DNA of 64,000 nt, taken from NCBI GenBank assembly GCA_021432655.1, contig MU271180.1, forward strand, positions 19,445 through 83,444, written 5' to 3'. This stretch comes from Atractiella rhizophila. Lineage: Eukaryota. The notes beneath the pieces are model-generated. The model did not search any database. It worked only from the letters and a program-made list of their open reading frames with translations, and had not been told where the DNA came from. The first letter of the stretch is position 1. Each line of letters opens with the position of its first letter. Of this stretch, positions 16,320 to 63,213 are shown piece after piece. Made by a program: the position numbers and the translations under genes.

Positions 16320-16410
16320 AAGGGATGTCGTGCAGTCATCAACCATCGTCATCCTCCCTCACCATCAGCTGAGATCAAGATAAGATCAACAGGGAAAGAA
16401 GGAAAGAAAG

Positions 16411-29838: not shown

Positions 29839-29932
29839 ATGTGGTCTTGCTGCGGATACCTTAAATTGAATAAGCTTTGACACATCTTCTTCTATTATAT
29901 TACCTAGTGTTCTTGCTACGACCAGGGCTACA

Positions 29933-38227: not shown

Positions 38228-38419
38228 ATGGATTCTGTTTCCTGCGACTCTCCGGGATGCAACAAAACCCACCCACACCACCATTGTGGAAAATGCAGAG
38301 AACATTGTCCTGAGCAGGCCCAGTATCACTGTGCCGAGTGCGGCAAGTGTCTGGAGACCGTTTGCAAGAATTGCGGCAAGGGGGTTGGATGCTGCCACGA
38401 GAAGGGGTCTTGCGCTTGA
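38228..38419 (+). CDS. Cys/His-rich metallothionein-like peptide (63 aa)
   Basis: 13 Cys and 7 His in CxxC/CC clusters; AACAAGATGG start context; pyrimidine-rich leader. Confidence 0.6.
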   Translation: MDSVSCDSPGCNKTHPHHHCGKCREHCPEQAQYHCAECGKCLETVCKNCGKGVGCCHEKGSCA

Positions 38420-38544
38420 ATAGTCAGTCTTTCCTATTCGTCGCTTTAGGAGACCGTTTGCAAGAATTGCGGCAAGGGGGTTGGATGCTGCCACGAGAAG
38501 GGGTCTTGCGCTTGAATAGTCAGTCTTTCCTATTCGTCGCTTTA
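38353..38544. repeat. Perfect 96-bp tandem duplication of the 3' end of the Cys-rich ORF
   Basis: 38353-38448 equals 38449-38544. Confidence 0.97.
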
Positions 38545-39827: not shown

Positions 39828-40572
39828 AAGATATAGGGTTGGAAACTAGAACAAGCGATCGTTTAAACCTAGAGCAGAGAACCTTCCACTTCTATAATAC
39901 TTGTACCAGTTTCCTATATACTCCTTTAAGCAAAGCGCTCTGTGATCTGGTTTATCTGGGTTGGCAGCCGCGGCCGTCATCTGTTCTCACCCTCTTTGTT
40001 TCCGCTCGCTGGACACAGTCACGGTGTGTGGACGGAGTTGTGAAATCGCAAAGGTACCGTCTTTGCTTTGACATCTGATTGATTGTGTTCCATTGTGCAA
40101 GGAGTTATACAACGTGCATTACGCATCCCTAATCCATTACTCCTAGTTGTTATTAGACCATTTTGACATTGTCTCTTCAAATTCAATAATATCCCCTCCA
40201 TATTGATATCACATGCCTTGATAGAAGTCCATTGATACTTTTCTTCATTACTGTGATGTCGCATCATATAACTGGAGCCCTAACCCGTTCTTTTAACGGC
40301 AAAATAGGACTAGGCAACGACACATCACGCGTTGAACGACAATTCCACAACATGACCGTTCCCTATCCAGTGCGGGAGCGGGTTCAAGCTTCACTTCAAT
40401 CGCGTTCGTCCCGCGGAATGCTTCGAGAGCTCAAAGATGGCTCGACATCGCTCGTCGACTTCTCCTCAAACGACTAAAGATATATGGTTGGAAACTGGAA
40501 CAAGCGATCGTTTAAACCTAGAGCAGAGAACCTTCCACTTCTATAATACTTGTACCAGTTTCCTATATACTC
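39828..40572. repeat. Two ~96-bp direct repeats (39828-39923, 40477-40572) each with an internal inverted repeat
   Basis: GGAAACT(A/G)GAACAAG ... CTTGTACCAGTTTCC; two substitutions seen between copies. Confidence 0.9.
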
Positions 40573-41483: not shown

Positions 41484-42052
41484 CCCGTTTGAACACATAT
41501 CTAGCAGGCTTGGATTGCAATAGTAGCATGGCTAACCGCCGCCCTCCAAGTGGAATGAAATCCAGCAGAAATACAACTTGCTAAACCGCAAGCTCTAATT
41601 TGCCCCTGACCTAGAAACTGCCACGACATCCTCAGAAGATCACCTGGAAATCGTGAGGTGAAGAACTAGACTGTCACGGATTCGATTCTGTAAGGATTAT
41701 TTAATCATTAGTCCCCCATCCACCCTCAAATCAGCAAATGAAGCGTGACAGATCCACCCATTCAAGGTTCAGGGGAATGTCGACGATTTCAGACTGAAAG
41801 CTCGTTACCCAGATTAAGAAACTAACGATGTCGCTATTCCGAAACTCGTGGATCAGTGATTCCTGTGGCAAAGGCTAGGGCAAAACCTTAATTTCCGCCT
41901 TCTATGCGTTAAAGTTTGGAGGGACAGAGGGACAGTCAGAGGGACATTTAGCGCCAAAAATTTTTGAAAAATTTTATATCCGTGAGTTCCGGTAAACTCC
42001 ACCCATCTGTGAAAGGTTGAAAAGTGCGCCGTACTCCTGAGCCATATCACCC

Positions 42053-44376
42053 TCAGCTGCCTGAATGCATTTGGTTGTTGGGGAACCGGAAACCAGCACA
42101 ACGCGGTCTTGAGGAAGGCGAAAAGAATTCTGTTACTGAGATTACAGAACTGATTGAGGTGACCGTGCGTACTGAGGCTGAAGAAGGAGGAAGGGATGGA
42201 GTGATCGAGATATGCGAATTGGAGACGAGTGTATTCGACGTATCATGTCGATCACCGGTGCTCCTGTTCGCTCTCTTAGCTGATGCGCAAACTCGTAGAT
42301 TCTGTGGGAAGACAACATACCTGCTATCTCTGGCAGTAATCTGTTTGCACGCATAACTGAACTGGCGGTGCTTAGCGAGATGTCCCTTCTTCACCATGGC
42401 ACCACAAATCGAGCAGGCTTCTTGATCCTACGACTGTCTATTAGCTTCCATTGCACCAATTAGAGGAAGGCACAAACCTCGCTTGGATGTAGAGAATGGG
42501 CTCGAGCTCGTTGCCGCCTCTTGCGCTCTCTCTCGTAAGAGGCGGACCGCGTATTCTTGCTCCGCTCATCATCGTCTAATCTTCTCTTTCTCCCTCTATT
42601 TTGTAGGCCGATGCTTTCCACTTCGGTTCCACCTCCTCTCCTCCCTACCGCCACTTGCATTCCCCCACTCCCTTTACGACGACTAACTTCAACAGACCTA
42701 ACTTTCCCCCTACTTTCCGCACGATCTTGATGCCTATCTGTCCTCTCTCCGCAAGTCCCAACCTCCACCGGCATCTGTTCATCTTCTGGGTAACTTCCTT
42801 CTGCCCTCGCAATGTCCTCCTCTACCTCCATTTCCTCGTTTTCAGCCTCCGGATGCGTCGCGTTGCAACGTCCATTGGCGCCGCCTTGCTGCCTTTGCGG
42901 AAGAGGAGCAATAGCTCCGAAAGACGATGGGGTCCCCTCAGATTCGTCATATCGGATGGTGACCGTAGTTTGACAGATGAGCTGGGGGTGGCTGACAGCA
43001 TATGGATAAAAAGAGATTGTTGGGATGGTTGGCGTTGATGGTTTGCGTTGAGTCTGACGAGAAGGGCTCGATGGAGAGCCGAGAGGAGGAGCAGGTGAGG
43101 AGGGTCGTGCGGTCCTGTGGGAGGGACCACGAGAGTGATGTTGTTGAAGCGCAAGTCCAGTCGTTTGCTGAAGGTTGCTGTTCTCGTCATTGGCACCGTG
43201 GTTGAGGTGAGTAACAGAGCTGGAACCGGGAGAGAGATTTGGCAAAACATTTGACAAGAATGAAGGGGATGTAGCCGCATGTTTATCAACAGAAAGGTTA
43301 TCCACACTATCCACATTCCGTATGAAGGATACCCTAGAAATTGGAGATCAGAGGGGCAACTGCCCCAAGATGTTTAGAAGCCTGAGTTGTGCGGCAATGC
43401 TGAGCGAGGGTACGATATCGCGATGGAGAGGGAAACAGAGGATGATAGATTGAATGAATTTGCGAACGGGAGAGTGGAAGGCGTCGGGGGATGTGTGGAG
43501 GCGCGTAAACGACTACAGAGGCGTCACTTAATTGTCTCATCTCGTACACAACCAGTGAAACTGGGAAGGAAATGCCTTACAATTCCTCAGCACCGTCACT
43601 CAGACCCACGCTGGAGTTGAAGCGTGCCCCTCTCAGCCCTTAAGACTTCCTGGCACGCCGTACAGCTGTTGTGACTTTCAATCCCTCTCACTGAAGCTGA
43701 TTGTGACCTGTTATACTGAAGACTGGTGGGTTGAATGCTTCTCGTTGGTTGATAACTGGGTTGATAAAATGTGCTGAGCTCGACGTTGACTTTCTGTTGT
43801 ACGCTGACTTGTTCACAAGAAGTTCACAATTCTTTCACCGCTATTTCACTGTGGGACAAACTTTCAGCCGCATTTCTTGGTATGTCCCTCCAGAACTGTG
43901 TTTTGTCGGAAATTTTGAGTTTGTCCTCCCCTTGGAAATGGTTGTACTAAATGATAACCCCCTGTCAAAAGTCCTTTCCGACATTTTCCCTTATTCCTAG
44001 CTTTTCGCGGCAAATTCAGACAAAGTTCCCGCATTTTCCTGCATGCACATAGTCCGATAACTGTGAAGAAATATTTTCTCATGCTGAGCTGGAAATTGAT
44101 GGAATTTCCTTCCTGTTGTTTCCTTTCAATGTCGTACTACGTCACAGACGACGCGCAGAACTCTGATTTTTCAGTTCTCAGTCACTTTCTCGAGTTCTCG
44201 AGGATATTCAAGAAGCAGTCACCGTCAATTGCGATCAGCGCAAAACCTAGGGTGCAGAAGAGGTGCTTTACAATTCTTTCTGGTTTGTTGTCTCTTCTAT
44301 TCACGATGTGAAATGGACTGCTAACCAACACGCTTCTAGTGGCAGCTTCCAGCAAAGCGATCGCGCGGCTTTTCAT
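42053..44376 (-). CDS. Possible CACTA accessory gene, low-complexity product
   Basis: 284-aa Ser/Pro/Glu/Arg-rich ORF 42460-43314 plus flanking exon-like ORFs, co-oriented and just downstream of the transposase; no recognisable domain. Confidence 0.35.
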
Positions 44377-44868
44377 GACATAGTATAGTCCCTAACAACT
44401 TGATGACACATTCCCTCTACCATCTTCCTCCTCTTGGCCAATCTCCGCAAGGTCTCCCTGTCTGTCAGTCTATAAGGCTTGTTAACTCCACCTCCACCTT
44501 AGCTTTCCAGCAAAGTCAGCCCATCAATCCGACCCCTCGTATCAACCGAATGAAGGACAGCTTTACTGCCCATCTGATGGTTCCAAGGTGTACGTGTGAA
44601 TGGCAATCAAACGAAATTTGCATGTGCATGCTGATTCATTACTTAACAGGTTCTTTGGCTACCGGTCAGTGTCACATACTACCGTAAGAACAACCTTGCA
44701 TAGGAAAGCCCCGGTCAGTCTCCCTCTTGTGTCTAATGCTGCACTAAAGTATTTACTCCAAGAGTCACATTGTATGGTGGAATGGAGTGGAAGATGAATG
44801 ACTTCTCGACGGTACATGATCAGAACTTATGTTATTATCAGCAGGCCACGAACTTGTGGATGATAAAA

Positions 44869-47800
44869 TTAATCACTTTCTACATCCAAACCTAGTTTAT
44901 GCACAATGAACCAATCCTCAAACCATGGTCTGGGAACCACCGCAACCATTTCAGTAATGTTATGAACAGGAATCACAACAAGTACACCTGCCGGTGCAGG
45001 CTTACAAGTCACCACAACACCGTAACGATCACGGCTCTCATACTCTTGGAATGGTCGAACTAGAGCAAGATGGTGGGTAACTGAGGCCGTGGTCAGTTCC
45101 AAGAAGTAACTGACCTCACCATATTCAACTTCCATTTTTGAGGTAGGGGAGCTGCGTCGTGTATACATGATGTTCCGACTGATGCGAACCTCATTCTGAG
45201 GGCGTTGCAGTTCCTTCCATCAAGTACGCACTCGCTCCCCATTTGGCAGTTGAAGACGTGCCCATTTTGTAAAGTTACCATTCCATGCCGACAGCTCCAC
45301 TTCAGTGTGAAGCTGTCGCAGATAATTCAAAGTGACATCCCTCTCAGGTCCATCGGTAAAGACCGCAGGTTCAGAGGCACGTAACAATGCAAAGGAACCG
45401 CCTAATTCGAGAGCGCCTTTAGGGAGTGTACGGAGCATTCGTTTCTCCATGAGTGTGGTGTCAATGGAGCGTAACGCTTGACACTGTGCTTGCTGAATAC
45501 ACTGCTTTGAAAGGTTCTGGTAAGGCTTTGATGGTTGACGTATTCTTGAGCCCAAAATGCCGATAGTTCGCTCGAGAGTCCACTGAGTGACGTAGATAAA
45601 TGGTCCAACTCGACGAGTTTGAGCCGCAAGATGCAAAAACTTGTGCAGGGACATTCGACAGAAATTGACACGATGGATGTCCTTTTGATAATACAGCTGT
45701 TCAAACTCTTTAACATATTCAATAATTAGTCCCTCAGCTAAGTCCAGCTCCCTTCGAGAGATTCGACGCTTTCGCAGAATTCGAATGCAGTAAACGATTT
45801 TGACGTAGTGTGAGTAGAACGGTTCAGGAATGTACCCTTCGAGCAATCCTGGTCCAAGTCCATAGAAATAAGTCTCCCACTCCTTCGCCTTATAATCAGA
45901 GTACTTGATATCAATGTTCCGAAGAAATTTGTCCCATGACGAAGGGATGTGTGTGCGAGTATTCGCACCTTCAATACCGTGCTGTTGCCAAGCTTCGCCC
46001 AAAAGAACCTCCCATTCCTGTCGATCTTCTGGCAGGATAGATGATTGAAAAGATGCGTCCTTTCCACGTTTGCGTTTGCCTGTTTTCGCTCTTATCATGT
46101 TGGACGGATGAATCATGCCTCGCCAGAGACCCAGCATCAATTCAGGAAAATTGAGATTTGGGTGATGCATTCCATCAACAATGAAACAGAAAGGAGGACC
46201 GTCACCAAACGTGGGTATTTCGGCGAAAGGTGTATCACGGACAATGCCATATTTTCGCTGGAGGGCTGCTGCTTTTCGAAGTCGACCAGCACGGCGCGCT
46301 GCCTGAAGTTGTTCCAAATGGGTTCGATATTCCTGGGCAGTTTCGGTGGGAAGATTATGAGGAACATAATCTGGTCGCTCAACTTCAGACTCTTGATAGT
46401 TTGTCGGCCGGCTGAGAGGATGATAGTAGATTGAATGTCCAGGCTCATGTACTCCGATTAAGGCACAGCCGTTAATATGACAGCCTCGACGACCTGTATG
46501 GCCAACTTCTCCCGCCATCTCACTAGCACAGATGGTATCGAAAAGTCCAAGTGCGATAAAAGGACGGGAACGGAACCAGATATTACACTCAGAGTCGTGG
46601 ATAGGAAAACCACTGATAGACAGCTTTTTGACACGTTGGAAAATTGGATAAAGAAAGGAATTCTGGTCCCAAGGTTTGTTCAGTCCTGGAATAATTGCGA
46701 TAGGAATAACATATTGCTGTTTGTAGCGGATCTCTGGTGGAAGGTTGTAGTCGATCATGACGATAAATATTGCATCTGAAGGTTTTTTGTTATTGAACAC
46801 CTGAGCACCATCGAGCGAGAAGGCGAGCAGTGTGTCAGAAGGGAGAATCTTTTTCTTGTGTACCAGCTTCAAGTAATCTGAACCACAATAAATATCGTCA
46901 AACTCGTCTGGAACCATTCCTGGTAATGGATATTTCGTAAGCAGAGCTTTTGTCCGTCTCGCTCGATGTTTCGAAGCAGAAGATCCTTGAGGTGTTGCCC
47001 AACGTGCCTGAAGAGGAGTCTCAAAAGGAACAAGGAAGAACTGTTGCTGGGAAACATCCTTAGTTCGTCCACTTCGCATAGTCTTTTGTCGATAGCGAGG
47101 AAGATGGCATTTAGGGCACTCTTGAAGATCAGATCGACTACCGGTATAAGCAATGCAGGTGTTTGGACACATATCGAAAGCGCTATAGCACTCCGTCTAG
47201 AACCACCCTAACTACCTATACTCCTCCTCCTCCTTCCTCTCTACCGCTCATTGTCGCTTCCACTCCTCCTCGTTCTAAGGATACGTGCGTGCAAGTTATC
47301 TCCTTGGTCGTATTCCTAAACTGACTTTCTATGGAAACGGATTTAGGAGACAATCCGACAAGTAAGGTGACTACGAGGGTGATGTCGAGGGCTTCCACTT
47401 GTCCTGGGATAACTCCGGTAAGAACGACTCCACCTCGCCCAGCTTAACGCTTCGGAACATGCACTACCGAAACGTGCTGGTTGACAACCTTTACTTCCTC
47501 TCCTTCTTGGATTCCTGCTGAATAGCCTTTTTTCTGAGTTGTCTAGATCTTCTCCTGCTGAGAAGTCTACCTCTCCTCCTTTGACCGGACCGTCCTCAGC
47601 CTCTCTACCTACTCGCACCCGGCTAGTTGACTTATTTTAGAACTTCAAACGACTAATAAGGCCTTGTCACCTACTATACCAAAGATTGGAGAACGACTCA
47701 CTGCTCGTCGAACATGCGGAAAACGTGCTCGTCTTTCACCAAGTCCTTCGACTCACAACTCAAGTGCTGCAATTTCTGCTTCTTTTCATGCCTATATGTG

Positions 47801-47976
47801 GAAATAGAGCACTTGTTTAGTATAGGGAGCTCGAAAAGTACTACACGGTACCAGCACGACGACCTACGGAAATACTGCTAGACACAGAGACCTAGCTCCT
47901 AGCTAAAGTTTGAGGATGGGAGAGAGAACTGGTTTAGTTCGCGGAACAATCCTTAGTTTCGGCATAGTAAGGACTT
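44869..47976 (-). mobile_element. CACTA/EnSpm (Tnp2/Transposase_21-type) transposase, copy 1; one premature stop; N-terminus lies in the mirrored block 47182-47976
   Basis: MCPNTCIAYTG..CPKC..PRY, FSLDGAQVF, YNLPPEIRY, IIPG..KP, VDGMH, YKAKEW, HKFLHLA..RRVGP, QWTLERTIG; TGA at 45220-45222 is in frame with 44869-45168. Confidence 0.88.
47182..47976. other. Mirrored block 1 (reversed, not complemented)
   Basis: Read backwards without complementing it matches about 59026-59819 and continues ...GAAAGC|TTCAGGAATGATACGG in frame. Confidence 0.96.
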
Positions 47977-48001
47977 NNNNNNNNNNNNNNNNNNNNNNNN
48001 N
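47977..48001. other. Assembly gap, 25 N
   Basis: Run of 25 N. Confidence 1.
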
Positions 48002-51000
48002 CCAGTTTTTGAGACGGAATGACGGTGACACCTGATGTTCTTACCTTCGTACCGACCCTATGAACTACCCTTGTGGGAAGGACGAGGTCTTAAACGACCC
48101 TTTACGAAGATGTGACGGGTACCTACGAAGAGATACCGTGTCTTCTGAACCTGTAGAATTAATACTCCTGTAGTTCGCAGACTTCTCCTTCCTTGAACAC
48201 TTACCCTACTAAAACCTGGACCTCCTACTAGGTCTGGGATAAACACTCGGTACGGATCGACCCTTCGTCGTGTCCCAGAAGTTGTTCAGTCGTTGCTGAT
48301 CCCTCTTCCTCTATAACCCATCTTAGTCGAGTCTGGATGTACCTGGAGAAGGTCAGTGAAGGTCTCTTCCCATAGCTATAACCCAGTGGAAGTAGCTGCT
48401 TCGTTGTTTAGTAACGTGTTAACGGAAGGAGTTCTTCTTTAGTCTCCGGGGTCTTGAGAAGTTCTGGAAGTTCTTAACCCATCTCTTACAGTGACCCTTC
48501 TTCTAGTTCTTCAAATCTCTCCTGTTCCTTCCGCGAATAAGGAGATTCCTTAAGCTAGTTATGGAATTCCGGACACCATAGGTCGCACTTGTCTGCTAGT
48601 CCTTGAGAGGAGTGGTCTTGCCGTCTCGTCTTGCTCGGTTATCCTGCTAAGTCCTCTGATACCAGCGGTACAAACTTCTTAGACCCGAAGGCGAGAAAGA
48701 GACCGGTAGATAGCGAAGTCGCCAGCAGGTGTAAGCGTTGTCTAGAGGGAGTCGAAGCTAGTTGGTACGATAAGGGGTGTGCTTTGAGTGACCTGAATGA
48801 GGTTGGTAGAGTTCTAAGTCTTAGTAACCTACGTGACGGATGCAAGTTCAAGTCTTCCTACTTTCCGGTGTGTCGAATCCTAGAGTATGAGCTTTTACGC
48901 GTAAATATCCGATAAGGGAACGTCGCTTTCCCACCCTCAAGACCCTAGGACAACGTTTCTTCCAGATGCAAGCTCTACAACGGTCTAAACTACTCTCTCT
49001 CTACGAGACGTTCCAGTCCTTCCTCTTCTAATGCAACCTTCTCGGTGTCCCTGGTGAACTACTCACCTTCCTCGCAGTCCTAGTCCACCCTCTACCTGTC
49101 TTATTACGAGGTCGGCGAGGAGGTCGGTCCTAAAGCGATCTGCTGCTACTGCTTCTTCTTCTACCTACCTAAGTTGTCGGTCCTCGTGGAGGATGTGGAG
49201 TCCTTGTTGGGTCCGGCGAACCTTATGTCAGAGGTTTATCTAAAGTCGGGGAAGTCCAGCTTCTTCTTCTTCTTCTTCTTCTTTCTCTCGGCAGAGGTCT
49301 GGGTGATGTCGAAGACGGACTTGCGGGATCCTGTGGGTGGAGCAGTCATGTGGTACGTCTCTCTAGGAACCTGTCCTCAAGTGTACGGATCTAAGAGTCT
49401 CAGAGGTCTAGGTGAGGTCTAGGCGGGTTGTTGTGGTCTAGCTGGAGGAGGTCGTCGAAGCTGTGGAGGGGGACAGTGGTCCGGAAGTTCTTAAATAAGA
49501 TGCTCATCTCCTGCTGGACATCTGTCTAAATCCTGGGGTCTTCGCGGAGTTTTGTTACTGCTTCCCAGTTGTCTGCTCGAACCCTACAACCATTTCCTTA
49601 CACTGTAGGAGTGACTCGGTCTCCGCTACCTTATACCGATATACGAACAGTGTCTCGTACGGTACTCACGTCGTTGTCCTCATCTCCAGGGAGTCAGTAT
49701 AAGTTCTCGCTACCGTTCGGGATTACGCTTCCTTACCGTACTTCGCTGTCACTTCCTCTAAGTTAGGTGAACCTGTTGTTCTCAACCTAAGACCAGTTCG
49801 GCGGATTTCCTCGTTTTTAGCAACCAAGAGCTACCCACAAACGCCAATTCTTCTTCAGCCTACCAAGATAACTCGCGAAGTTCCGGTCTAAGCAGTAGTT
49901 CCCCAAGAGAGTTGCGGGACCTAAGCTGATGAAACTGTGAAAGCGTAGATGCCAGTTTACCCGCTGTGAATCCTGCTAAGAAAGCGAGCGAACACAGAAC
50001 CTGTACCTCAACCTCAGTCACCTATAGAGATGCCGTAAGGAGTTGCCGCTATACCTACGTCTCCAGATACGTGTTGTTGGTCTTCCAGTAGGTGTCCCAG
50101 GAGGTCTCATGCAAGAGTTCGATTAGTTCCGGTAGATACCGTGTTCCGTTCCTCCTGCAGTTACCGTCTTCTTTGAGCTATTCCTTGAACAGCTATACCC
50201 TAAATTCTTCTAGTTCTCGCTGAGATCAGACACCTAAATGAGCTTCCCCCTGTAGTTTCATGAACAGGGTCAGAAACACCTACTATAATGCTAGCGATCG
50301 TGTAGTTTCCCACGACATCTCCTGAAGTTCTCCCTCAACCCCTTCGCTAAGTTTGAGTCTCTGGAACCTGGTTGCCTTAAGGATGAACCCCAAGCATAAT
50401 CCTCCCTATCTTTCGCTTCTTACTACACCAACCTAGTTCTTGTCATACAATTCCTGGAGGATCTTGCGGTTGTCTACCTGTTAACGTTGGGACAGGAGTG
50501 AGGAGAGTTGCAACCTGTGCCAGAGTCGTTCGTCCTGACGGGAGTCTGTTTCCTTCTTGTTCTTCTTTACGCGTGTTAGGGAATGTCGTTGCAACAACCG
50601 AGGTACTACATGAACCGGTAGAGGTGAGCAGGTCTATAGCGAGTACGTCAGAGACAGGAGCCTTTTATGGAGAGATTGGGTCCTTTCTTCGTGACCCTTC
50701 GCCGGTTCGTAGAAGATGCTATGGAGTTTCCGTGAGTCTTGAATCCTTAGCTCATAAGACGTTGACCAAAACTGGAGTTCGTTGGAAAAGTGCGGAAGAC
50801 GCTACGTCTAAAACGACCCACGTTCCTATGACCTGCAAGATGCCCTCCGATAGAGGAGTTCTATCCGTTGCCCCGTCAGTCAACCTCGTCGTTTGATGTT
50901 AGGGAGCAACGGGAAAGATGATGGCTTCGTCTTATACAGAGTCCTCAGAGTCGTCCAGTTCTTCAACAGACCGATTCCTTAGAAAATCTTCTTTAACCGA

Positions 51001-51669
51001 AGCGAGGAGTTCCAGGATGAGGGGAGAAGTGTCTGTCGTCGTCGCGAGAGGTCCATAGGTTCTTGGGACTCGTGGTACCAGCTTACTTTGTGGACCTGGA
51101 AGCGAAAATAACCGAGTCCCTACAACAACTCTACCCGTTCTAGTCAGGTCAGAAGACAGGTCCACAGTTATACGGTCGTCTGGAGGAGTGGTTCCGTGAA
51201 GGTCATCGGTCGCACCTGTTCAAAGCTCAATACTACCCAAACGCGGGGATGGGTTCACAGACTCCGTCAATACCCCGCGTTATTTTAAGGAAAGGAGGAG
51301 ACACCCCAATATTCTGCGGCGAAATTCGCCACGCTCTTGAAAAGGAGAAGAAAAGTAACGTTTTGATTATACGAAAGACGAAATATAGCTCATATGTAAC
51401 ACACACTTAAGCCACCCTCTCAGAGACCTAAACCACCCTCGTAGTTCTCTGTCGACGGGTCCACCCTCACAATCAACATCACACAACAAAACCAGTAGAC
51501 GGGAGAATACTGAGAATACTGAGCATACTCAGTAGTGATACATCAAATCAAGACGGATCCTCACAACCACGAGTAATAACTGGTGGTTGGTGAGGATCCA
51601 TACCGAGAGATATGAAGAGATTACACGAATAATAACTGGTGGTTGGTGAGGATTGGAATCTAGGAATGT
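48002..51669. mobile_element. Copia element A, 3' part (integrase, RT, RNase H, PPT, 3' LTR 51469-51669), mirrored; true orientation minus
   Basis: Complement reading: LWHRRLGHLN, CEPCLAGKQHR, SDLHGPLP, GSRWVFAVKKKSDGSIERFKARFVIKGFSQ, VFVDDI, stop at 51261-51263, GGTGGGAG then TGTTAG...CCTTACA. Confidence 0.93.
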
Positions 51670-54516
51670 ATCGCAACCATCTCATTGGATATTTCCGTGT
51701 AGACGCACATACCCTACGGTCTGACATGGCAGAAAGAAGGAAGACTTGAACCTGTATCCGTCACCTCGGATCCTGAGACTTTGCACTTTATAGCTGGTTA
51801 ACAGGACAATTAAAACACATCCCTTACCTCACTAACTACCTCCTTCTCCCCCTAGACAAGGACTACACTTGTTGTCGGCTTCGTTCTACTCCGGTCTCCT
51901 TATCACCGTTTGGTCTAAGGAGGTCATAGCGGTGGTATGGGAGGACTTAGCAGGATAAACGAGAGAGACGAAAGGGTAAAACTACCCTCTCAAGGATTAG
52001 CAAACGAGTGCGACCTATGGTGTTAAAGCTTCCATAAGTAACTTTAGACAACTCCTCATCCGCGGAAGAAACAGGAGGGACTTAGAGAACTAAAAGGAAG
52101 GTCAGTTCCAGAGGTAGTATCGAAACATGAGGAATTTCGCAACTCCACGAAGACTGAAGAAGGACTCTTTTCGTTAGCAGGTCACTGAACAACGGAGCAG
52201 ATATTTGCAGTGGGTTATCGCTTTAGGAAGAGAACTTCGTTGACCCTCGCCAGGTACTTCTAGACTCGACTAGGAGGGATTTAAAAGGGCAGAGGGATAA
52301 GAGACGTCGGAACAACATCTAGGATACGACGAAGGGTCGCTACGTCCCGAGTGTCTACCCCAGTCCTCGCAGAAGACTCAGGTCTTAGTAAGGAAAGTGC
52401 TCAGGAAAAGAAGTCGTAAGCGAAATGTAGAAGTACTAAGTTCACCCGTTCAGAGGACACGGTGTCCTTCGCAAATCTCCCCATCACCTCCGTACACGTT
52501 GCTTAAGACTCCAGTACTCGCAAGAAGGTAGCTACTACCGTGAGTACGAAGGAGAGGACACCAGTTGCCAGCGATTCTTCGTCTCTAAAGGTCGGAACTC
52601 CTTCGCATGAGACGAGGGTTACTACCAGTGTCAATGTGGAAGCTTCTAACACTCGAACTTTTGTCTATCCTCTAACGACGTGTTAAACCCCTGCACATCC
52701 TGTAACACTTACCACTGGAAGAAGCTGAAAAATAGAAGGTTAAAGCGGAGTTAGTGGTGAAGAGGATAGGGTTATCTGGTCTAGTGAAGAGGTAAGTGTT
52801 GAGACTACCCATGTTGCACAAAAACTATCCTAAACTTCTTCACCCTTACACCTCAGTAACTACTTCAACGAGGACATAGCTATTAGGTCAGTCAGGGTCG
52901 AAAGACCGCTGATTACCATAGTAGATGGCGACGTATTGACCAGAGAGGTCGCTTAAGACCGAAAAGGGGAAGCTGAAACCGAAGGAAGTGGCGAAGGTCG
53001 AACGGTATGAAGCTAGACATGAAGAGATTGAGCTAGGATAACGCAGGTCTTCGTCAAAGACCCGTCACCCTCTGCTTCACCGGGAAGGACACCGTCATCA
53101 ACGTGTGTCTAACGCTTTTTAGAGCTCAAGGAGGAGAAGGTGGTGGAGACGACGACCAAAATCGGTTAACGTGATTTTACTGGTCAGTAAGGGTTGTCAC
53201 GTCTAATTGGGAAATATGGGTTCCAAGTTGTGGGAAGGGATTAGACATGACAGACGTTGGTGAAAGAGACGGTGTTGGTAAAGGAAGGTAGTAAATATCA
53301 CCCCTTCTCGTGGGTGAGTTGTCGAAAATATCACCAAAACGGGGTGAGAGTGTTATACCGATTTCACGAGTCTGTCCCCAAGTTTGGGCCCATACGTCCC
53401 AGTCGAGAGCGATGGTACGACCAAAATCGGTTAACGTGATTTTACTGGTCAGTAAGGGTTGTCACGTCTAATTGGGAAATATGGGTTCCAAGTTGTAGAC
53501 GGTGGAGACCCTACGGTAGGAGGAGCAGGAGACAACGACGACCTACGGACTAAACGGTAAACTAACAACCTCTACCGAAGGAGACTCAGGAACCACCGAA
53601 CCTAGTTCATCTTACGAACAAACTAACTAACCTCCAGTCACCTACAGTAGTCCCAATTCAAGACCTGCTTTGATCGCATAAGACCCGGATTCCTCGCTTA
53701 CTCTCGCTTCCTAACCTCTAGAAGGAAGTTTAGTAGTTTCCTCATCAGGAACCTCTCGCACAACCACTTCAGATCTTCGTCGACCAGCGAAGACCGTGTG
53801 TCCCATTAGTCTCTAAGCGAAAGGAAGAAGACCTCCCGTTCCTCCCACAACTCCCGTCACTTTGCTCAACTCCTCGCGAAGACAACCACCTAAAGAACTT
53901 CCCATCTGGTCTAGAACTGACCTAGAACTTCCTGTCTCTGCTGTACCCGAAAGACCCAGCGAAGATCCGATTCCTTGTCCTAGGGTCGGCGAAACCTCGA
54001 CAGGAAAACGGTGACAAAAACGAGGAAGTTTAGAAGACCAAAACAGAGATGAAGTCTCTGATAGAGGGTATTGGGGAAAGCGTAGTTAAGACGGACGTAT
54101 AGTTACGTGGTCCACGGTATCAAGAAGAGAGGTTCCCCCCATTAGTTTTAAAATGAAAGAAGTCGGTACCACTATTTTAAGCTCAAACCTAGCAGGCTAG
54201 AAGCATCTTTACCCATCTATATCCGCATTCCCCCAGAACAAATACTAGGGTTTCAAAGTTTGGCTAACCTGTTGCCTACCGACTCACTAGTTTTAAAAGT
54301 TGGTTCACCCACCGTTTTGACTAGACAGTTAGGGATCGGTGGAGAGAGCGATGGTACTCTCTTAGACTACGACCTACCTCGATCCCCTGTCTCTAACCAC
54401 CAGTTTCTACTACTGGCGGATTTGACGGGGGATCCCCCGATTTTGAGGCTTTACTTCGTTTGTGTTGTTTCCACCGACTGGTGTGTTGTGTTCTGGTGTA
54501 TTGTGGATTAGGTTGT
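51670..54516. mobile_element. Copia element B2, 5' part (LTR 54356-54516, PBS, gag from 54168, protease, integrase), mirrored; true orientation plus
   Basis: Reverse reading: TGTTGGATTAGG...TCTCA, TGGTAGCGAGAG, NYGTWCIDMQAELMRKGLWEIV, DWIIDTGATSSMTPH, LWHRRLAHLN, CAFIGYS. Confidence 0.9.
53152..53496. mobile_element. TRIM-like non-autonomous LTR retroelement, 345 bp, mirrored, inserted in B2 gag
   Basis: Identical 80-bp terminal repeats 53152-53231 and 53417-53496 (TG...CA when un-mirrored), PBS TGGTAGCGAGAGC, PPT AGGGAAGGG, 5-bp TSD (AGACG as written on both sides). Confidence 0.92.
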
Positions 54517-55030
54517 CAGGACGACGAAATCTCGCGAGGAAAAGGGTAACGAAAGGGAGGAAGTTTAGTCGTCCGACGAAGAGGAGAGGTGTGTGTTAGA
54601 GGGTATCGGGGAAAGTGTAATTAAGTCGAACGTATAGCTACGTGGTCCACGGTATCAAGAAGAGAGGTTCCCCCCACTAGTTTTAAAATGAAAGAAATCT
54701 GTACCGCTATTTAAGCTCAAACCTAGCTAGCTTTACCCCCCTATCCCGGTATCCTCCCAGAGCTAATACTAGGGTTTCAGAACTTAGATAATCTGTTTCC
54801 TACCGACTCACCAGTTTTTAAAAGTTGGTTCACCCGCCGTTTTAACTTTTAACGTTAAGGTTGACTAGACAGCTAGGGATCGGTGACGAGAGCGATGGTA
54901 CTCTCCTTATCTACGACCTACCTCGATCCCCTGTCCTCAACCACCAGTTTCTACTATCCTAACTACTCCTTTGTGTATGGATCCCCTGTCCTCAACCACC
55001 AGTTTCTACTACTGGTGGTTATGACGGGGG
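54517..55030. mobile_element. Copia element B1 fragment (partial LTR, PBS, gag start at 54703) interrupted by B2, mirrored
   Basis: Reverse reading repeats the B-type LTR end, TGGTAGCGAGAGC and MSKESKILITP..NYGTWCIDMQ. Confidence 0.85.
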
Positions 55031-56223
55031 ATCCCTCTGCTGGAAGAAGAGAACCTTGTTGTGCTTGATGGAGACCCTCATTCCCTTGTAGATGGTAAGC
55101 TTGAAGACTGATAGAAGGTTGTTGTAGAGCTTGGGGACATGTAGGACATCTGAGATGGTGATGGTGATGGTCTTCTTCTCCCCCAACTTGGCTTCAAAGA
55201 TCAAGCTCCCAATCCCAGCACTCCAAATCACTTCTCCACTTGCTACCCTGATAGGGATAACCTTCTTCTGATAGGTTTTGAACCAATGGCGATGGGGAGA
55301 CATGTGGGAAGTTGCACCAGTGTCTGCTATCCACTCAAGGCTTGCTTGAGGCATAGTGACATCATTTGCTGCAGCAGGACTGTTCAGCCCAGCAAATTCC
55401 AACCCATTAAGAGCCATTTCCATCCCAAACATCCTCCTAGACCCTGTGGTTGAGTCCTAAGATCCCCTGATGTGATGCAGAAAGGGTGATAGGGGCTGAT
55501 GTGATGATGATGTGATGGTGGCAAATTTCGAAATTTTGACTCTTCTGACCAAGGTGATCTGTTGTAGGATAGTAGAATAGCCTATTGTGAATCCAATGGC
55601 GATAAAATCGTCCAGATCAGACCAGATCTGACTTCAAAAAGTCGAAAAATGCGTTTTGGGTGTATGAAGGAGGTGATGGAGTGGCTATCTCGAAATTTTC
55701 GCTTATTGTGACCAAGATGGTTCCTAGTAAAGTTGTAGCGCAGTGTTTCACGATCAAAATAAGCCCTATAACGTCCAAATTCGTCAAAGTTTGAGTCCAG
55801 GTGGCAAAGTGCGTTTTGAGGCAGGTGATGGGTGGTAAGGTGATAGATTTCGATTTTTCTTGATTCCTGAGTAGGCAGAAACCTTCTAAGGTGGTAAAGG
55901 AATGTTTGAGGATCACAAATCTGTTCTGATCATCAAAATTGAGCGAAATTTGAGTGTGGGAGGGTGAAAATTGTGGGAGGGGGAAGGTGATAGGTGTGAC
56001 CAAATGTAATCCTAGCCACCAGCTCTCGCTACCATGTAAGGATCTAAGGCTAGGAGTAGTTGGTGGTCAATAATTGAGGCATTGATGAAGTATAGAGAGA
56101 CATACCTAGGAGTAGTTGGTGATCAACAATGAGCACCAACACTCCTAGGCAAAACTAAACTACATAGTGATGACTCATATGAGTCATACGAGGCAGATGA
56201 CCAACACAACACTACAAGTAACA
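55031..56223 (-). mobile_element. Copia element A, 5' part: LTR 56035-56223, PBS 56022-56034, protease; gag apparently deleted
   Basis: TGTTAC...CCTTACA followed by TGGTAGCGAGAGC; WIADTGATSHM, DVLHVPKLYNNLLSV. Confidence 0.9.
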
Positions 56224-58470
56224 GCCTCCTCATGCTATCCCAGCCCCTGCCGCTCCTCCACCAATCGAAAGACGCTGTCCTGAACGACAGAGGAGACCAC
56301 CAGTCGAGTTCTGGAAGGCAGCTGGCCCAACCCCAGGAGGAGAGCTCTGAGGACGAGTTGGCAATTCTGGCTAAGGATTGTTGGATTATTAGAGCCTGAA
56401 GCGTTGGAGTGTGGTTTTATGGAGGTTACTGAGCATGCCATGGCTGTAGGAGCGCAGGATCACATCCCCAAGACATATGCAGAAGCCATGAAGACTCCAG
56501 AGGCGAAACAATGGCACGAGGGGACAGTGAAGGAGGTTCAAGCGCACTTGGACAACAAGAGTTGGGTACTAGTAAAGCCACCAAAGGGAGCAAAGGTCAT
56601 TGGATCCAGATGGGTGTTTGCTATCAAGAAGAAGTCTGATGGCTCAATTGAGCGTTATAAGGCTAGATTCGTCATCAAGGGCTTCTCCCAACGTCCTGGA
56701 TTCGACTTCTTCGACACCTTTGCTTCCACAGTCAAATGGGCCACTCTCAGAACCATTCTTTCGCTTGCCTGTGTCCTGGACATGGAGCTGGAGTCAGTGG
56801 ACATCTCAACCGCTTTCTTGAATGGAGAAATGGATGCTGAAGTCTATGCCAAGCAGCCAGAAGGTCACCCTCAAGGTCCCCCAGAATACGCTCTCAAACT
56901 CCTCAAAGCAATCTATGGCACCAGGCAAGGAGGACGTCAATGGCAGAAGAAACTGGACAGGGAGCTCGTGTCCATGGGCTTCACCAAGGTCAAGTGTGAC
57001 AGCAGTCTCTGGATCTACTCGAATGGTGAAGTCAAAGTGATTGTCCCAGTCTTTGTGGACGATATAATGATGCTAGCACGTCCAGAAGCGCTGTGGAGGA
57101 GTTCAAGAAGGAGTTAGGGAAGAGATTCAAGCTGAGGACCTTGGAGCCACGGAATTTTTGCTTGGCGTGAGGATTAGGCGGGATAGGAAGCAGAAGAAGA
57201 TGTGGTTGGATCAGGAGCAATACGTTAAGGACCTTCTCTCTCGACAGAAGATGGATAGCTGCAAGCCTGTGCTCACTCCCCTCAGTGTTGGCCACAGTTT
57301 ATCGAAGCAAGACAAGACTGTCCTCAGACCAAGGAAGATGAAGCGAACCATTCCCTACAGCCATGTCGTCGGCTCTCTCATGTACCTTGCAGTTGCTACA
57401 CGCCCTGACATCGCCCACACTGTCTCTGTCCTCGGAAAATTCCTGTCCAATCCTGGCAAGAGGCACTGGGAAGCTGCCAAACACCTCATGCGCTATCTCA
57501 AGGGCACTCAGGACATGTGCATCGAGTACTCTGCCTCACATTTCGATACCTCTCAACCATTCAAGGCATATTGTGATGCAGACTTTGCGGGTTGCAAGGA
57601 TACTGGCCGGTCCACTGGAGGATACCTCTTAACTGTCAGAGGAGGAGCAGTTAGTTGGAGTAGCAAGTTGCAGTCTCTGGTGGCACTCTCAACCACGGAG
57701 GCAGAGTACATCTCAGGGGTAGGTGATTTGGCTCAGAAGTCTTCTGCAAGAGATTGGCTTCGCTCCAAAAGGTTTGACAACACTTTACACGGACAGCAAC
57801 AGCGCCTTGCAAGTCAGCAAGAATCTTGAGCCCCATGGACGCATGAAGCACTTGGATCTTCGCTTCTACTGGCTCAGGGACACAGTAGAATCTGGACTCA
57901 TCACCCCAGTCTTCTGCCCTGGCGAGTCTATGCCTGCAGACCTCCTCACCAAAGCCTTACCGGTTGCTGGCGTTACAAAATTCCGAGAAATGATGGGTCT
58001 GCGCCCCTACCCAAGTGTATGAGGCAGTTATGGGGCGCAATAAAACTCTGTCCTCCTTCTGGGGGTTATAAGACGCCGCTTTAAGCGGTACGAGGATCTC
58101 TCTACTGGTTTTAGACATTTAACTAATACGTTTTCTTTGTGTGATGTCACTTCATGATGCCTTCATTCGGTGGGAGCTTCATTGGATGGCTATTCTGGAT
58201 GGTTCTTGGATTTGGTGGGAGCTTCAAGAGGCGGCTGCCCAGGTGGGAGTGTTGGATTAGGTGTTATATTTCATGGTGTTATGTTTGTGTGGTCAGCCAC
58301 CTCTGTTTTGTTTGCTTCATTTCGGAGTTTTAGCCCCCTAGGGGCAGTTTAGGCGGTCATCATCTTTGACCACCAATCCCTGTCCCCTAGGTATGTGTTT
58401 CCCTATCAATGTCATCATCTTTGACCACCAATCCCTGTCCCCTAGCTCCATCCAGCATCAGATTCACTCA
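56224..58470 (+). mobile_element. Copia element B, 3' part: RT-RNase H (frameshifted), PPT, 3' LTR 58250-58470
   Basis: PKTYAEAM, SRWVFAIK..ERYKARFV, DISTAFLNG, VFVDDI, TRPDIA, YCDADFAG, ALSTTEAEY, MKHLDLRFYWLR, ADLLTKAL. Confidence 0.95.
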
Positions 58471-59820
58471 TTTAACACGTTGTAAAATTGGATAAAGAAA
58501 GGAATTCTGGTCCCAAGGTTTGTTCGGTCCTGGAATAATTGCGATAGGAATAACATATTGTTGTTTGTAGCGGATCTCTGGTGGAAGGTTGTAGTTGATC
58601 ATGACGATAAATATTGCATCTGAAGGTTTTTTGTTATTGAACACCTGAGCACCATCGAGTGAGAAGGCGAGCAGTGTGTCAGAAGGGAGAATCTTTTTCT
58701 CGTGTACCAGCTTCAAGTAATCTGAACCACAATAAATATCGTCAAACTCGTCTGGAACCATTCCTGGTAATGGATATTTCATAAGCAGAGCTTTTGTCCG
58801 TCTCGCCCGATGCTTCGAAGCAGAAGATCCTTGAGGAGTTGCCCAACGTGCCTGAAGAGGACTCTCAAAAGGAACAAGGAAGAACTGTTGCTGGGAAACA
58901 TCCTTAGTTCGTCCACTTCGCATGGTCTTTTGTCGATAGCGAGGAAGATGGCATTTAGGGCACTCTTGAGGATCAGATCGACTACCGGTATAAGCAATGC
59001 AGGTGTTTGGACACATATTGAAAGCTTCGCGAATGATACGGCTTTGATTCCTGACAAGGCGCTTGATTTGGTCAAGAGAGAGGGTAGGAGTTTGAAATTG
59101 ATCCTCTATCCAGAGACGCAGATCGTCATAAAGGCATCCAGCAGCACGACCATGGCACATCATGAAAAGCTCGAGGGATATGATTTGTTCACGAGATAAA
59201 GGTGTATATCCGTACTTTTCTTCGTCTTTAACGTCGTGAACTCAACACTCAGCTTCCTGAACCACTTTCTGCTCGTGCAAAAGGCGTACAAGCTGCTCGT
59301 CACTCAGCAAGAGGCTAGAAACCATATCATCCACTGTTCCGGAATAATCAGCAAACTTCAAGATTTTATTCAGTTGATCGGCCCACGCTCATCCATCTCT
59401 CCAACTCCTGCCAGCCCAGTTTCCTCCTCTCCATCTGAAGAGTCGTCCTCTTCTAGATCTGTTGAGTCTTTTTCCGATAAGTCGTCCTTAGGTTCTTCCT
59501 CTCCTTCATTTCCAACAGTTGGTCGTGCAAAGCCATCACGCACAAGGCTTCGCAATTCAACCCGCTCCACCTCAGCAAGAATGACCTCAATAGGGTCCTG
59601 TTCACCTTCGGGAGCTGTAGTGGGAGCATCAGTGGAATGAACAGCCTAACAGAGGATTTAGGCAAAGGTATCTTTCAGTCAAATCCTTACGCTGGTTCCT
59701 CTATTGAACGTGCGTGCATAGGAATCTTGCTCCTCCTCACCTTCGCTGTTACTCGCCATCTCTCCTTCCTCCTCCTCCTCATATCCATCAATCCCACCAA
59801 GATCTGCCTCACGATATCAT
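58471..59820 (-). mobile_element. CACTA/EnSpm transposase copy 2, N-terminal part, cut by the Copia B LTR
   Basis: Near-identical to 46627-47181 plus the un-mirrored block 1; ORF ends exactly at the LTR boundary. Confidence 0.9.
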
Positions 59821-60138
59821 GAGCAAGTTCACTTTGTATCCATTCCACAACTCCTCTCACTGCCTCAAGTCATATCATGGACAGTGCAGAAGATGCACTA
59901 GATTGGGCGTGCAACTGTGGCAGATACTGTGGGGGGGAGTGGCGAAGAGTAGCGAAGAGGACATTTGATCGGCATGCACTTCATTTTTTTTCAACTCAAC
60001 AATCTCCTTCATTCTGACATATACCTCTAAAGCTGAGAAGTACATGTCTGCTACTAAACGCTCAGATACTATATCCCTTTCAGATGATGAAGAAGAAATA
60101 TGGAGTGATAAAAATGGCTTGGATGATTTAGGGGAAGG

Positions 60139-62560
60139 CATGGTATCTTATCACATTCCCTTCGTATCATGAATTAATTGGTAGAATGTACAGGTTATGA
60201 CCCATATGAACATCTCAACGTCCTAACGCCAACACAATCTTCCCTGGCAGCCATTACGCCCCACAGCCATCTACCAGACTCTGCCATCGTGCCACCCTCC
60301 ATCAATACAACAGTCTTACGTGTTCAGACACCATTAAGCCACTTATCTCATTCTGAGATAACGTCGGTCGGAAATGCGGACAAGCATACCTTGGGAATAT
60401 CTGGAAATGTGGTATATCAACGTTTAGTCAAGGAGGTGGAACGGTTGAGAGGACTTAATGAATCTCTACAGTACGTGTCAACAAATCTTTTCTTTCGTTT
60501 AATCTATGGGGCATAACTATGGGCTGAAGGATGGCTATCTGTAACCTAACCTCCAATACTTCTCTTACACCTCCACTTTCCTCCACTACATCGCTCCAGA
60601 TGCCCAAACTAAATAACTTCGACATTCCACAACAGTATCGTGACTTCCAACTGCCTCCGCCTGCCCGAGAAAAGCCTGCTCATATTCCCTACTTCACTTT
60701 TGACAATTTCAAGAAATGGTGGACACTGTTCCCAAAGCTACCTCCTGGAGAGAAGGAAAAGTGCAAGTATGAATGGCTCAAGACTAAGAGCGGTGCACAG
60801 GTCACCACGGAGCGAATAGCTGATCTGAAGTGGGAAGCGAGGGAGATTCTTGAGGAAATGTATAACACTCCGCTATTCTGCCAGAAGACATGGTCTAAGA
60901 TCCCTCACGTACATCGGATTCATGGAATCGCAGTACTCGAGTGCAAGTTTCCTGAGCTTACACAGTGTCAAGGACATGCCATGGCGGACCACATCTTTTG
61001 TGAACTGAAGCATCGGCAGCTCGAGAACCTCAACGCGGTGGATAGGCAGGCAGCGAAGCGGGTTAAGGCAGAAGAGCAGGTGGAAAGCGTGACACAGGGG
61101 CACGATGGCTGCTTTCGAGAAGACACAACTGTGCCTGGAAGAAAGGAAGTGGAGAAGAAGAAGGTAGCGAAGTTGAAAGTCAAAGAGAATAAAGGAAGAA
61201 ATGTTGAAGTCTTTCCTCAATTGTGTGTCTTCTCTGTGAAACTCTTCCAATTGTCTGACAAAGTATGTAGAAGAACTACTTCCGAGGACATTCTAGGTCC
61301 TACCTTACGGAGTGCTGTCAGGTCCTCAGTCCAACCTCAAAATGAGCTTGCAAAGAAATCTGAAACCAGTAAGGTTTCCACCATCCACTTGACCGCTGTT
61401 CAAGGTATCATCAGCTATTCTGTCTTGCAATTTAAACGATAATCCCGCATCCCCCATGACCTCCATTGCCAGTAGCTACAGGTTACAGAATCCTACTGTC
61501 CCCGATGCTAATGGTTTGTCTACTTCTCCTCGATCGCAAGCTCACAGCGACAGCTAAAGTACCTTTGCTTTGAATAGGCTCGTCATGCCTAAGTCGGATT
61601 CAGTCAGGACCGACAGGTGGCATTTCTGCTGAAGGTGTCAAGGGGATGTTGAAATCAGTTTGTCTTTTCCCCTAGCTCAACCAAAGGATGTTCTCGAAAG
61701 GTGTTAACGGATAGCTGGTCTGTCAGTGTGTGGAATGTCGAGTTGGAGATTCCTGCTCCTGGTAGGACTTTGCATGCCATTTGACTAAGTCAATGTACGC
61801 TAACTCATGATGCACAGGCAATCCAGTTCCATCTTCTGCAGTGCCATTCACCCAGAAAACTGTGCTACTGGCGCGGTCATTTGGCAATGCCATGGCAGTC
61901 AACAACGTCATTGCAGCTTCCGCTTCTCTACATGCCAAGGTTCATTATTTCTTTGATTAACATGTGGATAACAGGCATGTGTAATGTAGGCAAATATGGG
62001 AGGAGCTGCCGTCTGTGCACCACCATCACTCAAGTGGATTCAAGGAGGGCGGTCAGATCCAGTTTCGTCTCAAGGCACATGAGGCTAACAGACCGCATTG
62101 TTCAGTGAGATGTATCGGCGGTCTCGAATCGAACAATGGGAAAAGGAACGTGCCGATGGCAGCAACATCTTGGAACCGAACTGGAAAGAGGAGTACAAGC
62201 GACTTTCTCAATCTGAAAAGCAGGTGAGGTATTGTTACTATCCCACAAACCTATTCGCTTACCAGTAACCGTTTCAGATGTGGAACAAACGATACAAAGA
62301 CCTCAACGTATCACTTCATGATCATAGCACGACTCCTGTCATTGCCCCCTCGACGACGGAGGGACAGTTATAATATGCTGCAAGACAGACTTGTATGGAA
62401 AAGCGTAGAAGAGTTGGGAAGATGGGTTTCAGAGGTACCTGCAGGGGATCTGATGACGGAGGAGGTGCGCACAGCCAGGAAAGAGGGGGGAGAGGGTGCA
62501 GGATAATACAGGGAAATGCAGCTATCCACAATCTATACATTTGATTTAATTCTATTATAC
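60139..62560 (+). CDS. Probable CACTA accessory gene divergent from the transposase, partly degraded
   Basis: Exon-like ORFs 60178-60516 and 60531-61442; later segment WKEEYKRLSQSEKQ-WNKRYK resembles an HMG-box helix; internal stops. Confidence 0.4.
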
Positions 62561-62717
62561 ATTCTCAATATGTTTTCTGCTTCGCGAGAATCCAGGAAAT
62601 AATCAGCAACCCAGGCCATAATTTTCAGTGTTTCCTGCATATTCCAGCAGGACGGAAATTGTTGTAAAAAGGTCGGGAAATGTCGACAAACGACAGAAAG
62701 GACTTTTGACAGGGCAC

Positions 62718-62922
62718 CAGCTCTCGCTACCTTGTAAGGATCTAAGGCTAGGAGTTGTTGGTGGTCAATAATGAGCAATTAGAGAAGTATAGAGAGACAT
62801 ACCTAGGAGTAGTCGGTGGTCAATAATGAGCACCAACACTCCTAGGCAGAACTAAACTACATAGTGATGACTCATAAGAGTCATAAGAGGCAGATGACCA
62901 AAACAACACACTACAACTAACA
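62718..62922 (-). mobile_element. Copia A-type LTR (62733-62922) with PBS remnant
   Basis: Homologous to 56019-56223. Confidence 0.92.
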
Positions 62923-62929
62923 TTATTGG

Positions 62930-63213
62930 GTGGTTATTTTGGATGGTTCTTGGATTTGGTGGGAGCTTCAAGAGGCAGCTGCCCAGGTGGGAGTGTTGGA
63001 TTAGGTGTTATATTTCATGGTGTTGTATTTGTGTGGTCAGCCACCTTTGCCATGTTTGCTCACTTCATAGTTTTTCTCCCTAGGGGGCAGTCTTGGTGGT
63101 TATCATCTTTGACCACCAACTCCTGTCCTCTAGGTATATGTTTCCTCATCAATCCTATCATCTTTGACCACCAATCTCTGTCCCCTAGCTCCATCCAGCA
63201 TCAGATTCTCTCA
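62930..63213 (+). mobile_element. Copia B-type 3' UTR, PPT and LTR (62994-63213)
   Basis: Homologous to 58190-58470; TG...CA ends. Confidence 0.92.

What the first reader, a model, noticed from the sequence alone, without database searches (positions are those of the whole stretch)
47182..55030. 7.8 kb of mirror-image DNA (reversed but not complemented) on both sides of a 25-N gap
Seen: this stretch has almost no meaningful six-frame ORFs, yet 47182-47976 read backwards matches about 59026-59819. The plain complement of about 49560-51330 matches the Copia RT/RNase H at about 56420-58090. Each block, when flipped, joins its own outer flank in frame: transposase IIPEAF|DMCPNTC on the left, and protease VLFFQQRD|GQKLCL...LWHRRLGH on the right (with one apparent 1-bp indel before LWHRR). 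Established: no known polymerase or recombination route makes kilobase mirror copies, because it would invert strand polarity. Inference: an orientation bug in long-read gap filling; the 25-N spacer is typical of such tools. It hides several elements from all standard annotation.
Basis: partly seen in the sequence, partly recalled or inferred. Interest (0 to 1): 0.85.

Follow-up and report, generated by a model that had tools for sequence, protein, structure and literature searches.

The report
Backwards-written DNA flanking an assembly gap
Two stretches (0.8 and 7.0 kb) on either side of a gap in this fungal genome record are written backwards without being complemented; turned round, each continues the ordinary transposon next to it, so this is a data error and not new biology.

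Summary
The mirror is in the file, with one correction: it ends at 55039, not 55030. Blocks 47182-47976 and 48002-55039 flank 25 N. The block has no ordinary-strand match in the window, but read backwards 47183-47971 matches 59031-59818 at 98.5%. Sequence polarity is inverted in 15 of 15 bins inside, against 6 of 111 outside. Of seven arrangements tested, only 'each block reversed in place' lets outside proteins align across the junctions: 15 of 19 on the left and 2 of 3 on the right, 0 for all others. Contigs of a public run continue from 55040 into 20 letters that are exactly 48002-48021 read backwards. So real DNA (a Tnp2-type transposase and two nested Copia elements of an Atractiella-like fungus) was mis-oriented by software, most likely while extending both flanks into a gap. 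The program (PBJelly-like) is inferred, not shown. The scan has reported the same fault on other pieces of this genome (6 notes, not checked here). Seven paper searches found no description of it. It is not biology, but it is a useful assembly-quality warning.

The parts
45223..47181 (-). Tnp2 (PF02992, CACTA/Plavaka-like) transposase frame, normal polarity; its upstream part lies in the mirrored left block
   Evidence: Pfam E 9e-8; 19 homologues; 15 of 19 align across 47181/47182 only after reversal
47182..47976 (.). Left mirrored block, 795 bp: upstream part of the transposase copy, written backwards
   Evidence: Flank plus flipped block aligns to 58471-59818 as one 1349-column match, 97.9%, 1 gap; junction scan
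47977..48001 (.). 25-N spacer between the two blocks
48002..55039 (.). Right mirrored block, 7038 bp: nested Ty1/Copia sequence written backwards; its 48002 end is the true continuation of 55040
48054..49031 (.). Copia element A: gag-pre-integrase, integrase and SH3-like part (reads as the plain complement, left to right)
   Evidence: P0010 residues 155-479, 45% identity, E 1e-92; domains of P0010
49609..51260 (.). Copia element A: reverse transcriptase-RNase H; one 506-aa open frame at 49743-51260 in the complement
   Evidence: 88% and 74% identity to the window's unmirrored RT/RNase H frames; ORF
51469..51670 (.). LTR-like piece closing element A
   Evidence: Reversed, it matches 62733-62922 at 91% and 56034-56223 at 85%
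51683..54168 (.). Copia element B: gag (53518-54168), protease and integrase (51683-52894); reads right to left, with frame breaks, cut off at element A's LTR
   Evidence: P0010, P0011 and P0012 alignments
54355..55038 (.). Two LTR-end-like pieces (54355-54520, 54900-55038), each next to a mirrored copy of the primer-binding-site-like motif seen unmirrored at 56023 and 62721
   Evidence: motif mirrored at 53405, 54344, 54888; the PBS label is my inference from its place beside the LTR
55040..55456 (-). Copia element A protease (Pol_BBD), normal polarity; continues into the right block
   Evidence: Pfam PF22936 E 7e-22; 2 of 3 homologues span the junction after reversal
56284..57826 (+). Unmirrored Copia RT/RNase H copy used as internal reference
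   Evidence: Pfam RVT_2 E 6e-44 for 56284-57114
58471..59819 (-). Second, unmirrored copy of the transposase region used as internal reference

Best explanation
The DNA is real, but its orientation in the record is a software error. Shown: each block is the true continuation of its own outer flank and was reversed without being complemented, separately and in place, with 25 N between. Inferred: a gap filler extended both contig ends into a repeat-rich gap, could not join the two extensions and wrote a fixed spacer. Seen from the minus strand, the record reads right flank, complement of the right extension, N25, complement of the left extension, left flank. One missing reversal (order swapped and bases complemented, strings not reversed) would produce exactly this when a gap is walked against the scaffold direction. 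A PBJelly-type long-read filler is my lead candidate (about 0.6); the program was not identified.
For: Only 'each block reversed in place' gives protein alignments across the junctions: 15 of 19 left, 2 of 3 right; the six other arrangements give 0 of 19 and 0 of 3 (alike). The polarity index is negative in 15 of 15 inner 500-bp bins and 6 of 111 outer ones (all weak, down to -4.8); after flipping, 17 of 17 bins are positive. Dinucleotide signature: CpG 0.86 and GpC 0.51 as written, CpG 0.51 when reversed, like 0.49 in the right flank. Two X1 contigs carry a 20-letter loose end before 55040 that equals 48002-48021 read backwards and occurs nowhere in the window as written. Six retroelement motifs are found 7 times in the flipped block and 0 times as written. 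Differences from copy 2 are similar in flank (15 of 555) and flipped block (14 of 794). PBJelly's flank extension and 'overfilled' gaps are described in PMC3504050 (passages). Established chemistry: polymerases, reverse transcriptases and recombinases keep 5'-3' polarity, so a moved segment is reverse-complemented.
Against: No reads of the assembled individual were available. X1 and X2 are one sample, kept as contigs only, and differ from the window at about 1% of sites (21 of 1862 in the longest piece). No whole genome is held, so I could not test other gaps. No paper found ties 25 N or this error to a named program. No clear long-read error signature: 1 indel in 794 columns, and no homopolymer run of 4 or more at the protease-integrase frame switch. 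4 of 19 transposase homologues and 1 of 3 Copia proteins do not span the junctions.
Confidence: 0.9

Rival explanations
1. Same artefact, different step: a scaffolder, short-read gap closer, or in-house script placed two small contigs or graph paths beside the gap and oriented them with a faulty reverse-complement routine.
For: The left block ends where the sequence appears to branch. X1 and X2 contigs join 59818 to 59979 on opposite strands, and the block's last base matches that other path rather than copy 2 (one base, 1 in 4 by chance). The indel load is low.
Against: Each block joins its flank to the base, with no N or overlap at 47181/47182 or 55039/55040, as extension would give and contig placement would not. 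The 7 kb block crosses nested multi-copy repeats, which short reads rarely span (inference).
Confidence: 0.08
2. The mirror was introduced after assembly, in the handling of this data set (reformatting or window extraction), and is not in the deposited record.
Against: The reversal is confined to two blocks that end exactly at an internal N run and at in-frame junctions; a whole-record step would not respect those limits.
Confidence: 0.015
3. Biological mirror DNA: the fungus holds kilobase segments with base order reversed on the same strand, made by an unknown copying route.
For: Only that reads of the assembled individual were not seen.
Against: It needs parallel-strand templating or polarity inversion, which no known enzyme performs (established knowledge). 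Both blocks abut an N gap. Public contigs show the unmirrored continuation at 55040. The flipped block is no more diverged from copy 2 than its flank and keeps a 506-aa frame.
Confidence: 0.003
4. Ordinary inversion, or chance and low-complexity mirror repeats.
For: Short mirror matches of 23-37 bp do occur elsewhere in the window.
Against: Reverse-complement arrangements give 0 of 19 and 0 of 3 junction alignments. The block has no ordinary-strand match. The mirror matches run to 789 and 1896 columns with E 0.0.
Confidence: 0.002

Closest known systems
PBJelly flank extension and 'overfilled' gaps (English et al. 2012, PMC3504050; passages seen)
   Same: Two separate extensions, one from each contig end, that do not overlap and leave a residual gap; repeat-rich site. 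PBSuite's summary script uses 25 N as default minimum gap (PMC6240028, passage).
   Different: The passages I saw describe no reversed, uncomplemented output. That PBJelly writes exactly 25 N at overfilled gaps is my recall and comes from no call. The program used for this record is unknown.
Reversed-but-uncomplemented decoy sequence used by Dfam as a negative control (PMC3531169; passages seen)
   Same: Same transformation; it removes true transposon matches while keeping composition, which is why the block is invisible to annotation.
   Different: There it is deliberate; here it sits inside an assembly.
Ty1/Copia LTR retrotransposons (PF14223, PF22936, PF13976, PF00665, PF07727)
   Same: Hidden element A has protease, integrase, then RT-RNase H; element B has gag, protease, integrase.
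   Different: Both carry frame breaks, B is truncated, and the closest outside proteins are only 32-50% identical.
Tnp2/Transposase_21 (PF02992) transposases of CACTA/Plavaka-like fungal elements
   Same: Pfam hit above the curated cut-off; 19 homologues, several from fungi.
   Different: Terminal repeats and target-site duplication not tested; the superfamily label is recalled from the Pfam family.

Membership tests
Gap-filler flank-extension artefact (PBJelly-type overfilled gap) | Two separate extensions, each continuous with its own flank | tested here: met
   15 of 19 and 2 of 3 proteins span the junctions only with each block reversed in place; DNA continuity over 1349 and 1291 columns
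Gap-filler flank-extension artefact (PBJelly-type overfilled gap) | Extensions do not overlap and an N spacer remains | tested here: met
   25 N; no match between the two flipped blocks among the 21 self-matches listed
Gap-filler flank-extension artefact (PBJelly-type overfilled gap) | 25 N is the placeholder the program writes | tested here: inconclusive
   25 appears only as a default minimum gap and as read-support thresholds; one search found 0 papers
Gap-filler flank-extension artefact (PBJelly-type overfilled gap) | Long-read consensus error profile in the fill | tested here: inconclusive
   1 indel (in a T run) in 794 columns; no clear homopolymer link at frame switches
Gap-filler flank-extension artefact (PBJelly-type overfilled gap) | The assembly was processed with that program | not testable with these tools
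   No genome or methods record held
Biological inversion | Segment is the reverse complement of the original | tested here: not met
   0 of 19 and 0 of 3 for both reverse-complement arrangements; no ordinary-strand match
Mirror repeats / H-DNA | Short arms (low-complexity, adjacent; definition recalled) | tested here: not met
   Arms here are 0.8-1.9 kb of coding sequence, 5-12 kb from their partners; ordinary mirror matches in the window are 23-37 bp
Ty1/Copia (hidden element A) | Domain order protease, integrase, RT, RNase H | tested here: met
Ty1/Copia (hidden element A) | Uninterrupted pol frame | tested here: not met
   Frame switches between protease and integrase and before RT
Ty1/Copia (hidden element A) | Paired full LTRs and target-site duplication | tested here: inconclusive
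   LTR-like pieces at both ends match at 85% over 202 columns; target-site duplication not examined
Tnp2 (PF02992) transposase | Pfam domain above cut-off | tested here: met
   32 bits against 28.6
Tnp2 (PF02992) transposase | Terminal inverted repeats of a CACTA-type element | not tested
   none

The most novel reading that the evidence does not exclude
An undocumented fault of a widely used gap-filling step writes unjoined flank extensions backwards whenever a gap is walked against the scaffold direction. Many public hybrid assemblies would then hold kilobase mirror blocks beside 25-N gaps, hiding real genes (in this genome, by earlier notes, NLR-like, GTPase and folate genes) and producing false gene losses. 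A simple polarity scan would find and repair them.
Probability: 0.35. Interest if true: 0.45.

Novelty: not a real feature. Interest (0 to 1): 0.15.

Why it matters
As biology it does not matter: the content is ordinary fungal transposon sequence. As data quality it does. Reversed, uncomplemented DNA keeps GC content, so composition plots miss it, and it gives no BLAST, Pfam or repeat hit. Genes in such blocks look lost or truncated, and the block can yield spurious short ORFs. If the fault comes from common software, other assemblies carry it. The polarity index used here is a cheap screen.

Tried and rejected
Cover of the block by public contigs: X1 and X2 have depth in 19 of 30 bins and none in the 11 bins that lie wholly inside the block. 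The tool states that a hole proves nothing, so this is not counted as evidence. No whole genome was held, so other gaps could not be scanned. The metagenome scan with the protease returned 3 loci that match only 21 residues; they were dropped. The arrangements 'complemented in place', 'whole block reversed', 'whole block complemented' and both reverse-complement forms were rejected. No tRNA genes in the window. Literature: seven searches for the fault (listings only) found no description. Passages of PMC11659978, PMC7642942 and PMC6829135 held nothing relevant. Two searches on the fungus and its assembly methods (listings only) gave nothing usable. No supplements were read. Software trackers, forums and subscription journals are outside the library, so the fault may be known there. 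The flipped translations were not scanned against Pfam; domain names inside the block rest on alignment to outside proteins and to the window's unmirrored copies.

Full report
Observation. The window has one N run, 25 N at 47977-48001. BLASTN of the window read backwards against itself gave 32 rows (16 pairs); all but one pair link 47183-55038 to the unmirrored region 55090-64000. The longest are 47183-47971 to 59031-59818 (98.5%) and, as plain complement, 49615-51472 to 56392-58253 (74.6%). As written the block matches nothing else in the window on either ordinary strand, and the control outside the block gave 3 mirror matches of 23-37 bp. GC content does not mark the block.

Polarity. A Markov model trained on 1-46000 prefers the reversed reading in 8 of 8 kilobase bins from 47001 to 55000 and the written reading in 55 of 56 others (orders 2 and 3; the 10 outer bins not used in training are all positive). 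The change points fall near 47175 and 55018. With 500-bp bins, 15 of 15 inner bins are negative against 6 of 111 outer bins, and 17 of 17 bins are positive after flipping (the outer bins were used in training). The CpG deficit of the neighbouring transposon DNA (0.49) appears in the block as a GpC deficit (0.51).

Boundaries. The left junction is 47181/47182: 135 of 141 identities to the second transposase copy, against 74-88 at 19 other positions. Bases 55031-55038 continue the backwards match to the LTR at 63075 (8 of 8), and the X1 loose end is placed before 55040. P0011 aligns best there, while P0010 prefers 55042. The mirrored total is 795 + 7038 bases.

Which arrangement is right. I fetched 19 outside transposases and 3 outside Copia proteins with the unmirrored flanks as queries and aligned them to seven versions of the window. 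Only 'each block reversed in place' gave alignments that cross the junctions by 30 bases or more on each side: 15 of 19 on the left and 2 of 3 on the right. In that view flank plus left block align to 58471-59818 as one 1349-column match at 97.9% with one gap, and the two Copia elements align to each other across the right junction over 1291 columns. Differences from copy 2 are 15 of 555 in the flank and 14 of 794 in the block.

Public contigs. Five runs were listed and four laid on 42001-62000. X1 and X2 are one sample and differ from the window at about 1% of sites, so they count once and may be another strain. Two X1 contigs have a 20-letter loose end before 55040 that is letter for letter 48002-48021 read backwards, and that string does not occur in the window as written. 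200 more loose ends were not displayed. The lack of cover inside the block is listed under Tried and rejected and not counted.

What is hidden. The host is a basidiomycete close to Atractiella rhizophila (Mdm10 exon 97% identical, next hit 37%). The left block is the upstream part of a Tnp2-type transposase copy. The right block holds the integrase, RT-RNase H (a 506-aa frame) and LTR piece of Copia element A, whose protease lies unmirrored at 55040-55456. It also holds gag, protease and integrase of Copia element B in the opposite direction, and two LTR-end pieces. Six retroelement motifs occur 7 times in the flipped block and 0 times as written. Both elements have frame breaks.

Mechanism. 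Shown: two separately reversed blocks, each continuous with its own flank, separated by 25 N. Established: DNA-copying and recombining enzymes keep strand polarity, so they produce reverse complements and not mirrors. Inferred: a program extended both contig ends into a repeat-rich gap, could not join them, and mis-oriented both pieces. On the minus strand the layout equals 'swap the order and complement, but do not reverse', a single missing step. PBJelly's paper describes flank extension and overfilled gaps (PMC3504050, passages), and 25 N is PBSuite's default minimum gap in a summary script (PMC6240028, passage). That PBJelly writes 25 N at such gaps is my recall only. Against a confident attribution: the indel load is low, and the left block ends at what may be a branch point, which would also fit a graph-based tool.

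Comparison and novelty. Dfam uses reversed, uncomplemented DNA as a decoy because it removes true transposon matches (PMC3531169, passages), which explains why annotation misses the block. Seven searches found no paper describing this fault, within a library that lacks subscription journals and software trackers. Six earlier notes of this scan report backwards-written blocks on other pieces of the same genome, two of them explicitly next to gaps. I could not check them, some may describe the same block, and they are not independent support.

Verdict. It is an assembly artefact with probability about 0.99; the gap-extension route about 0.9; a named program is not shown. It is not a real biological feature. 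Interest 0.15, for its value as a quality-control warning.

Noticed in passing
window 13671-16319 / 16323-18973; 19826-20327 / 20329-20828; 38353-38448 / 38449-38544: Near-perfect head-to-tail duplications (98.7%, 98.2%, 100%) with spacers of 3, 1 and 0 bases. They may be false duplications at closed gaps or between haplotypes.
   Followed up: no
window 28508-29111 / 29241-29843 and 39828-39923 / 40477-40572: Further direct repeats at 97-98% identity with spacers of 129 and 553 bases.
   Followed up: no
window 59819-59979: X1 (3 contigs) and X2 (1 contig) join 59818 to 59979 on opposite strands, which suggests a 161-bp inversion in this transposon copy relative to others; the mirrored left block ends at the same point.
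   Followed up: partly
window 56034-56223 and 58181-58473: These two pieces match the two halves of the LTR-like unit at 62715-63216 (91% and 88%) and enclose about 2 kb of Copia RT/RNase H: an LTR split by, or recombined with, another element.
   Followed up: no
window 53152-53231 / 53417-53496: Perfect 80-bp direct repeat inside the mirrored block, one copy next to a PBS-like motif.
   Followed up: no
window 47182-64000: CpG is depleted in the transposon region (0.49-0.51) against 0.83 in the gene-rich part, which fits methylation-linked decay of repeats.
   Followed up: no
window 55799, 57070, 57135: X1 and X2 contigs carry single-base insertions relative to the window in the unmirrored Copia region; the window's frame breaks there may be consensus errors or differences between copies.
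   Followed up: no
window 4664-36916: Ordinary fungal gene pieces by Pfam: Pyr_redox, ThiF, MDM10, DUF1295, RNA cap methyltransferase, eRF1 domains, Iso_dh, DnaJ, ribosomal L30/L7. The public model P0001 joins DUF1295 and MDM10 in one protein, possibly a merged gene call.
   Followed up: no
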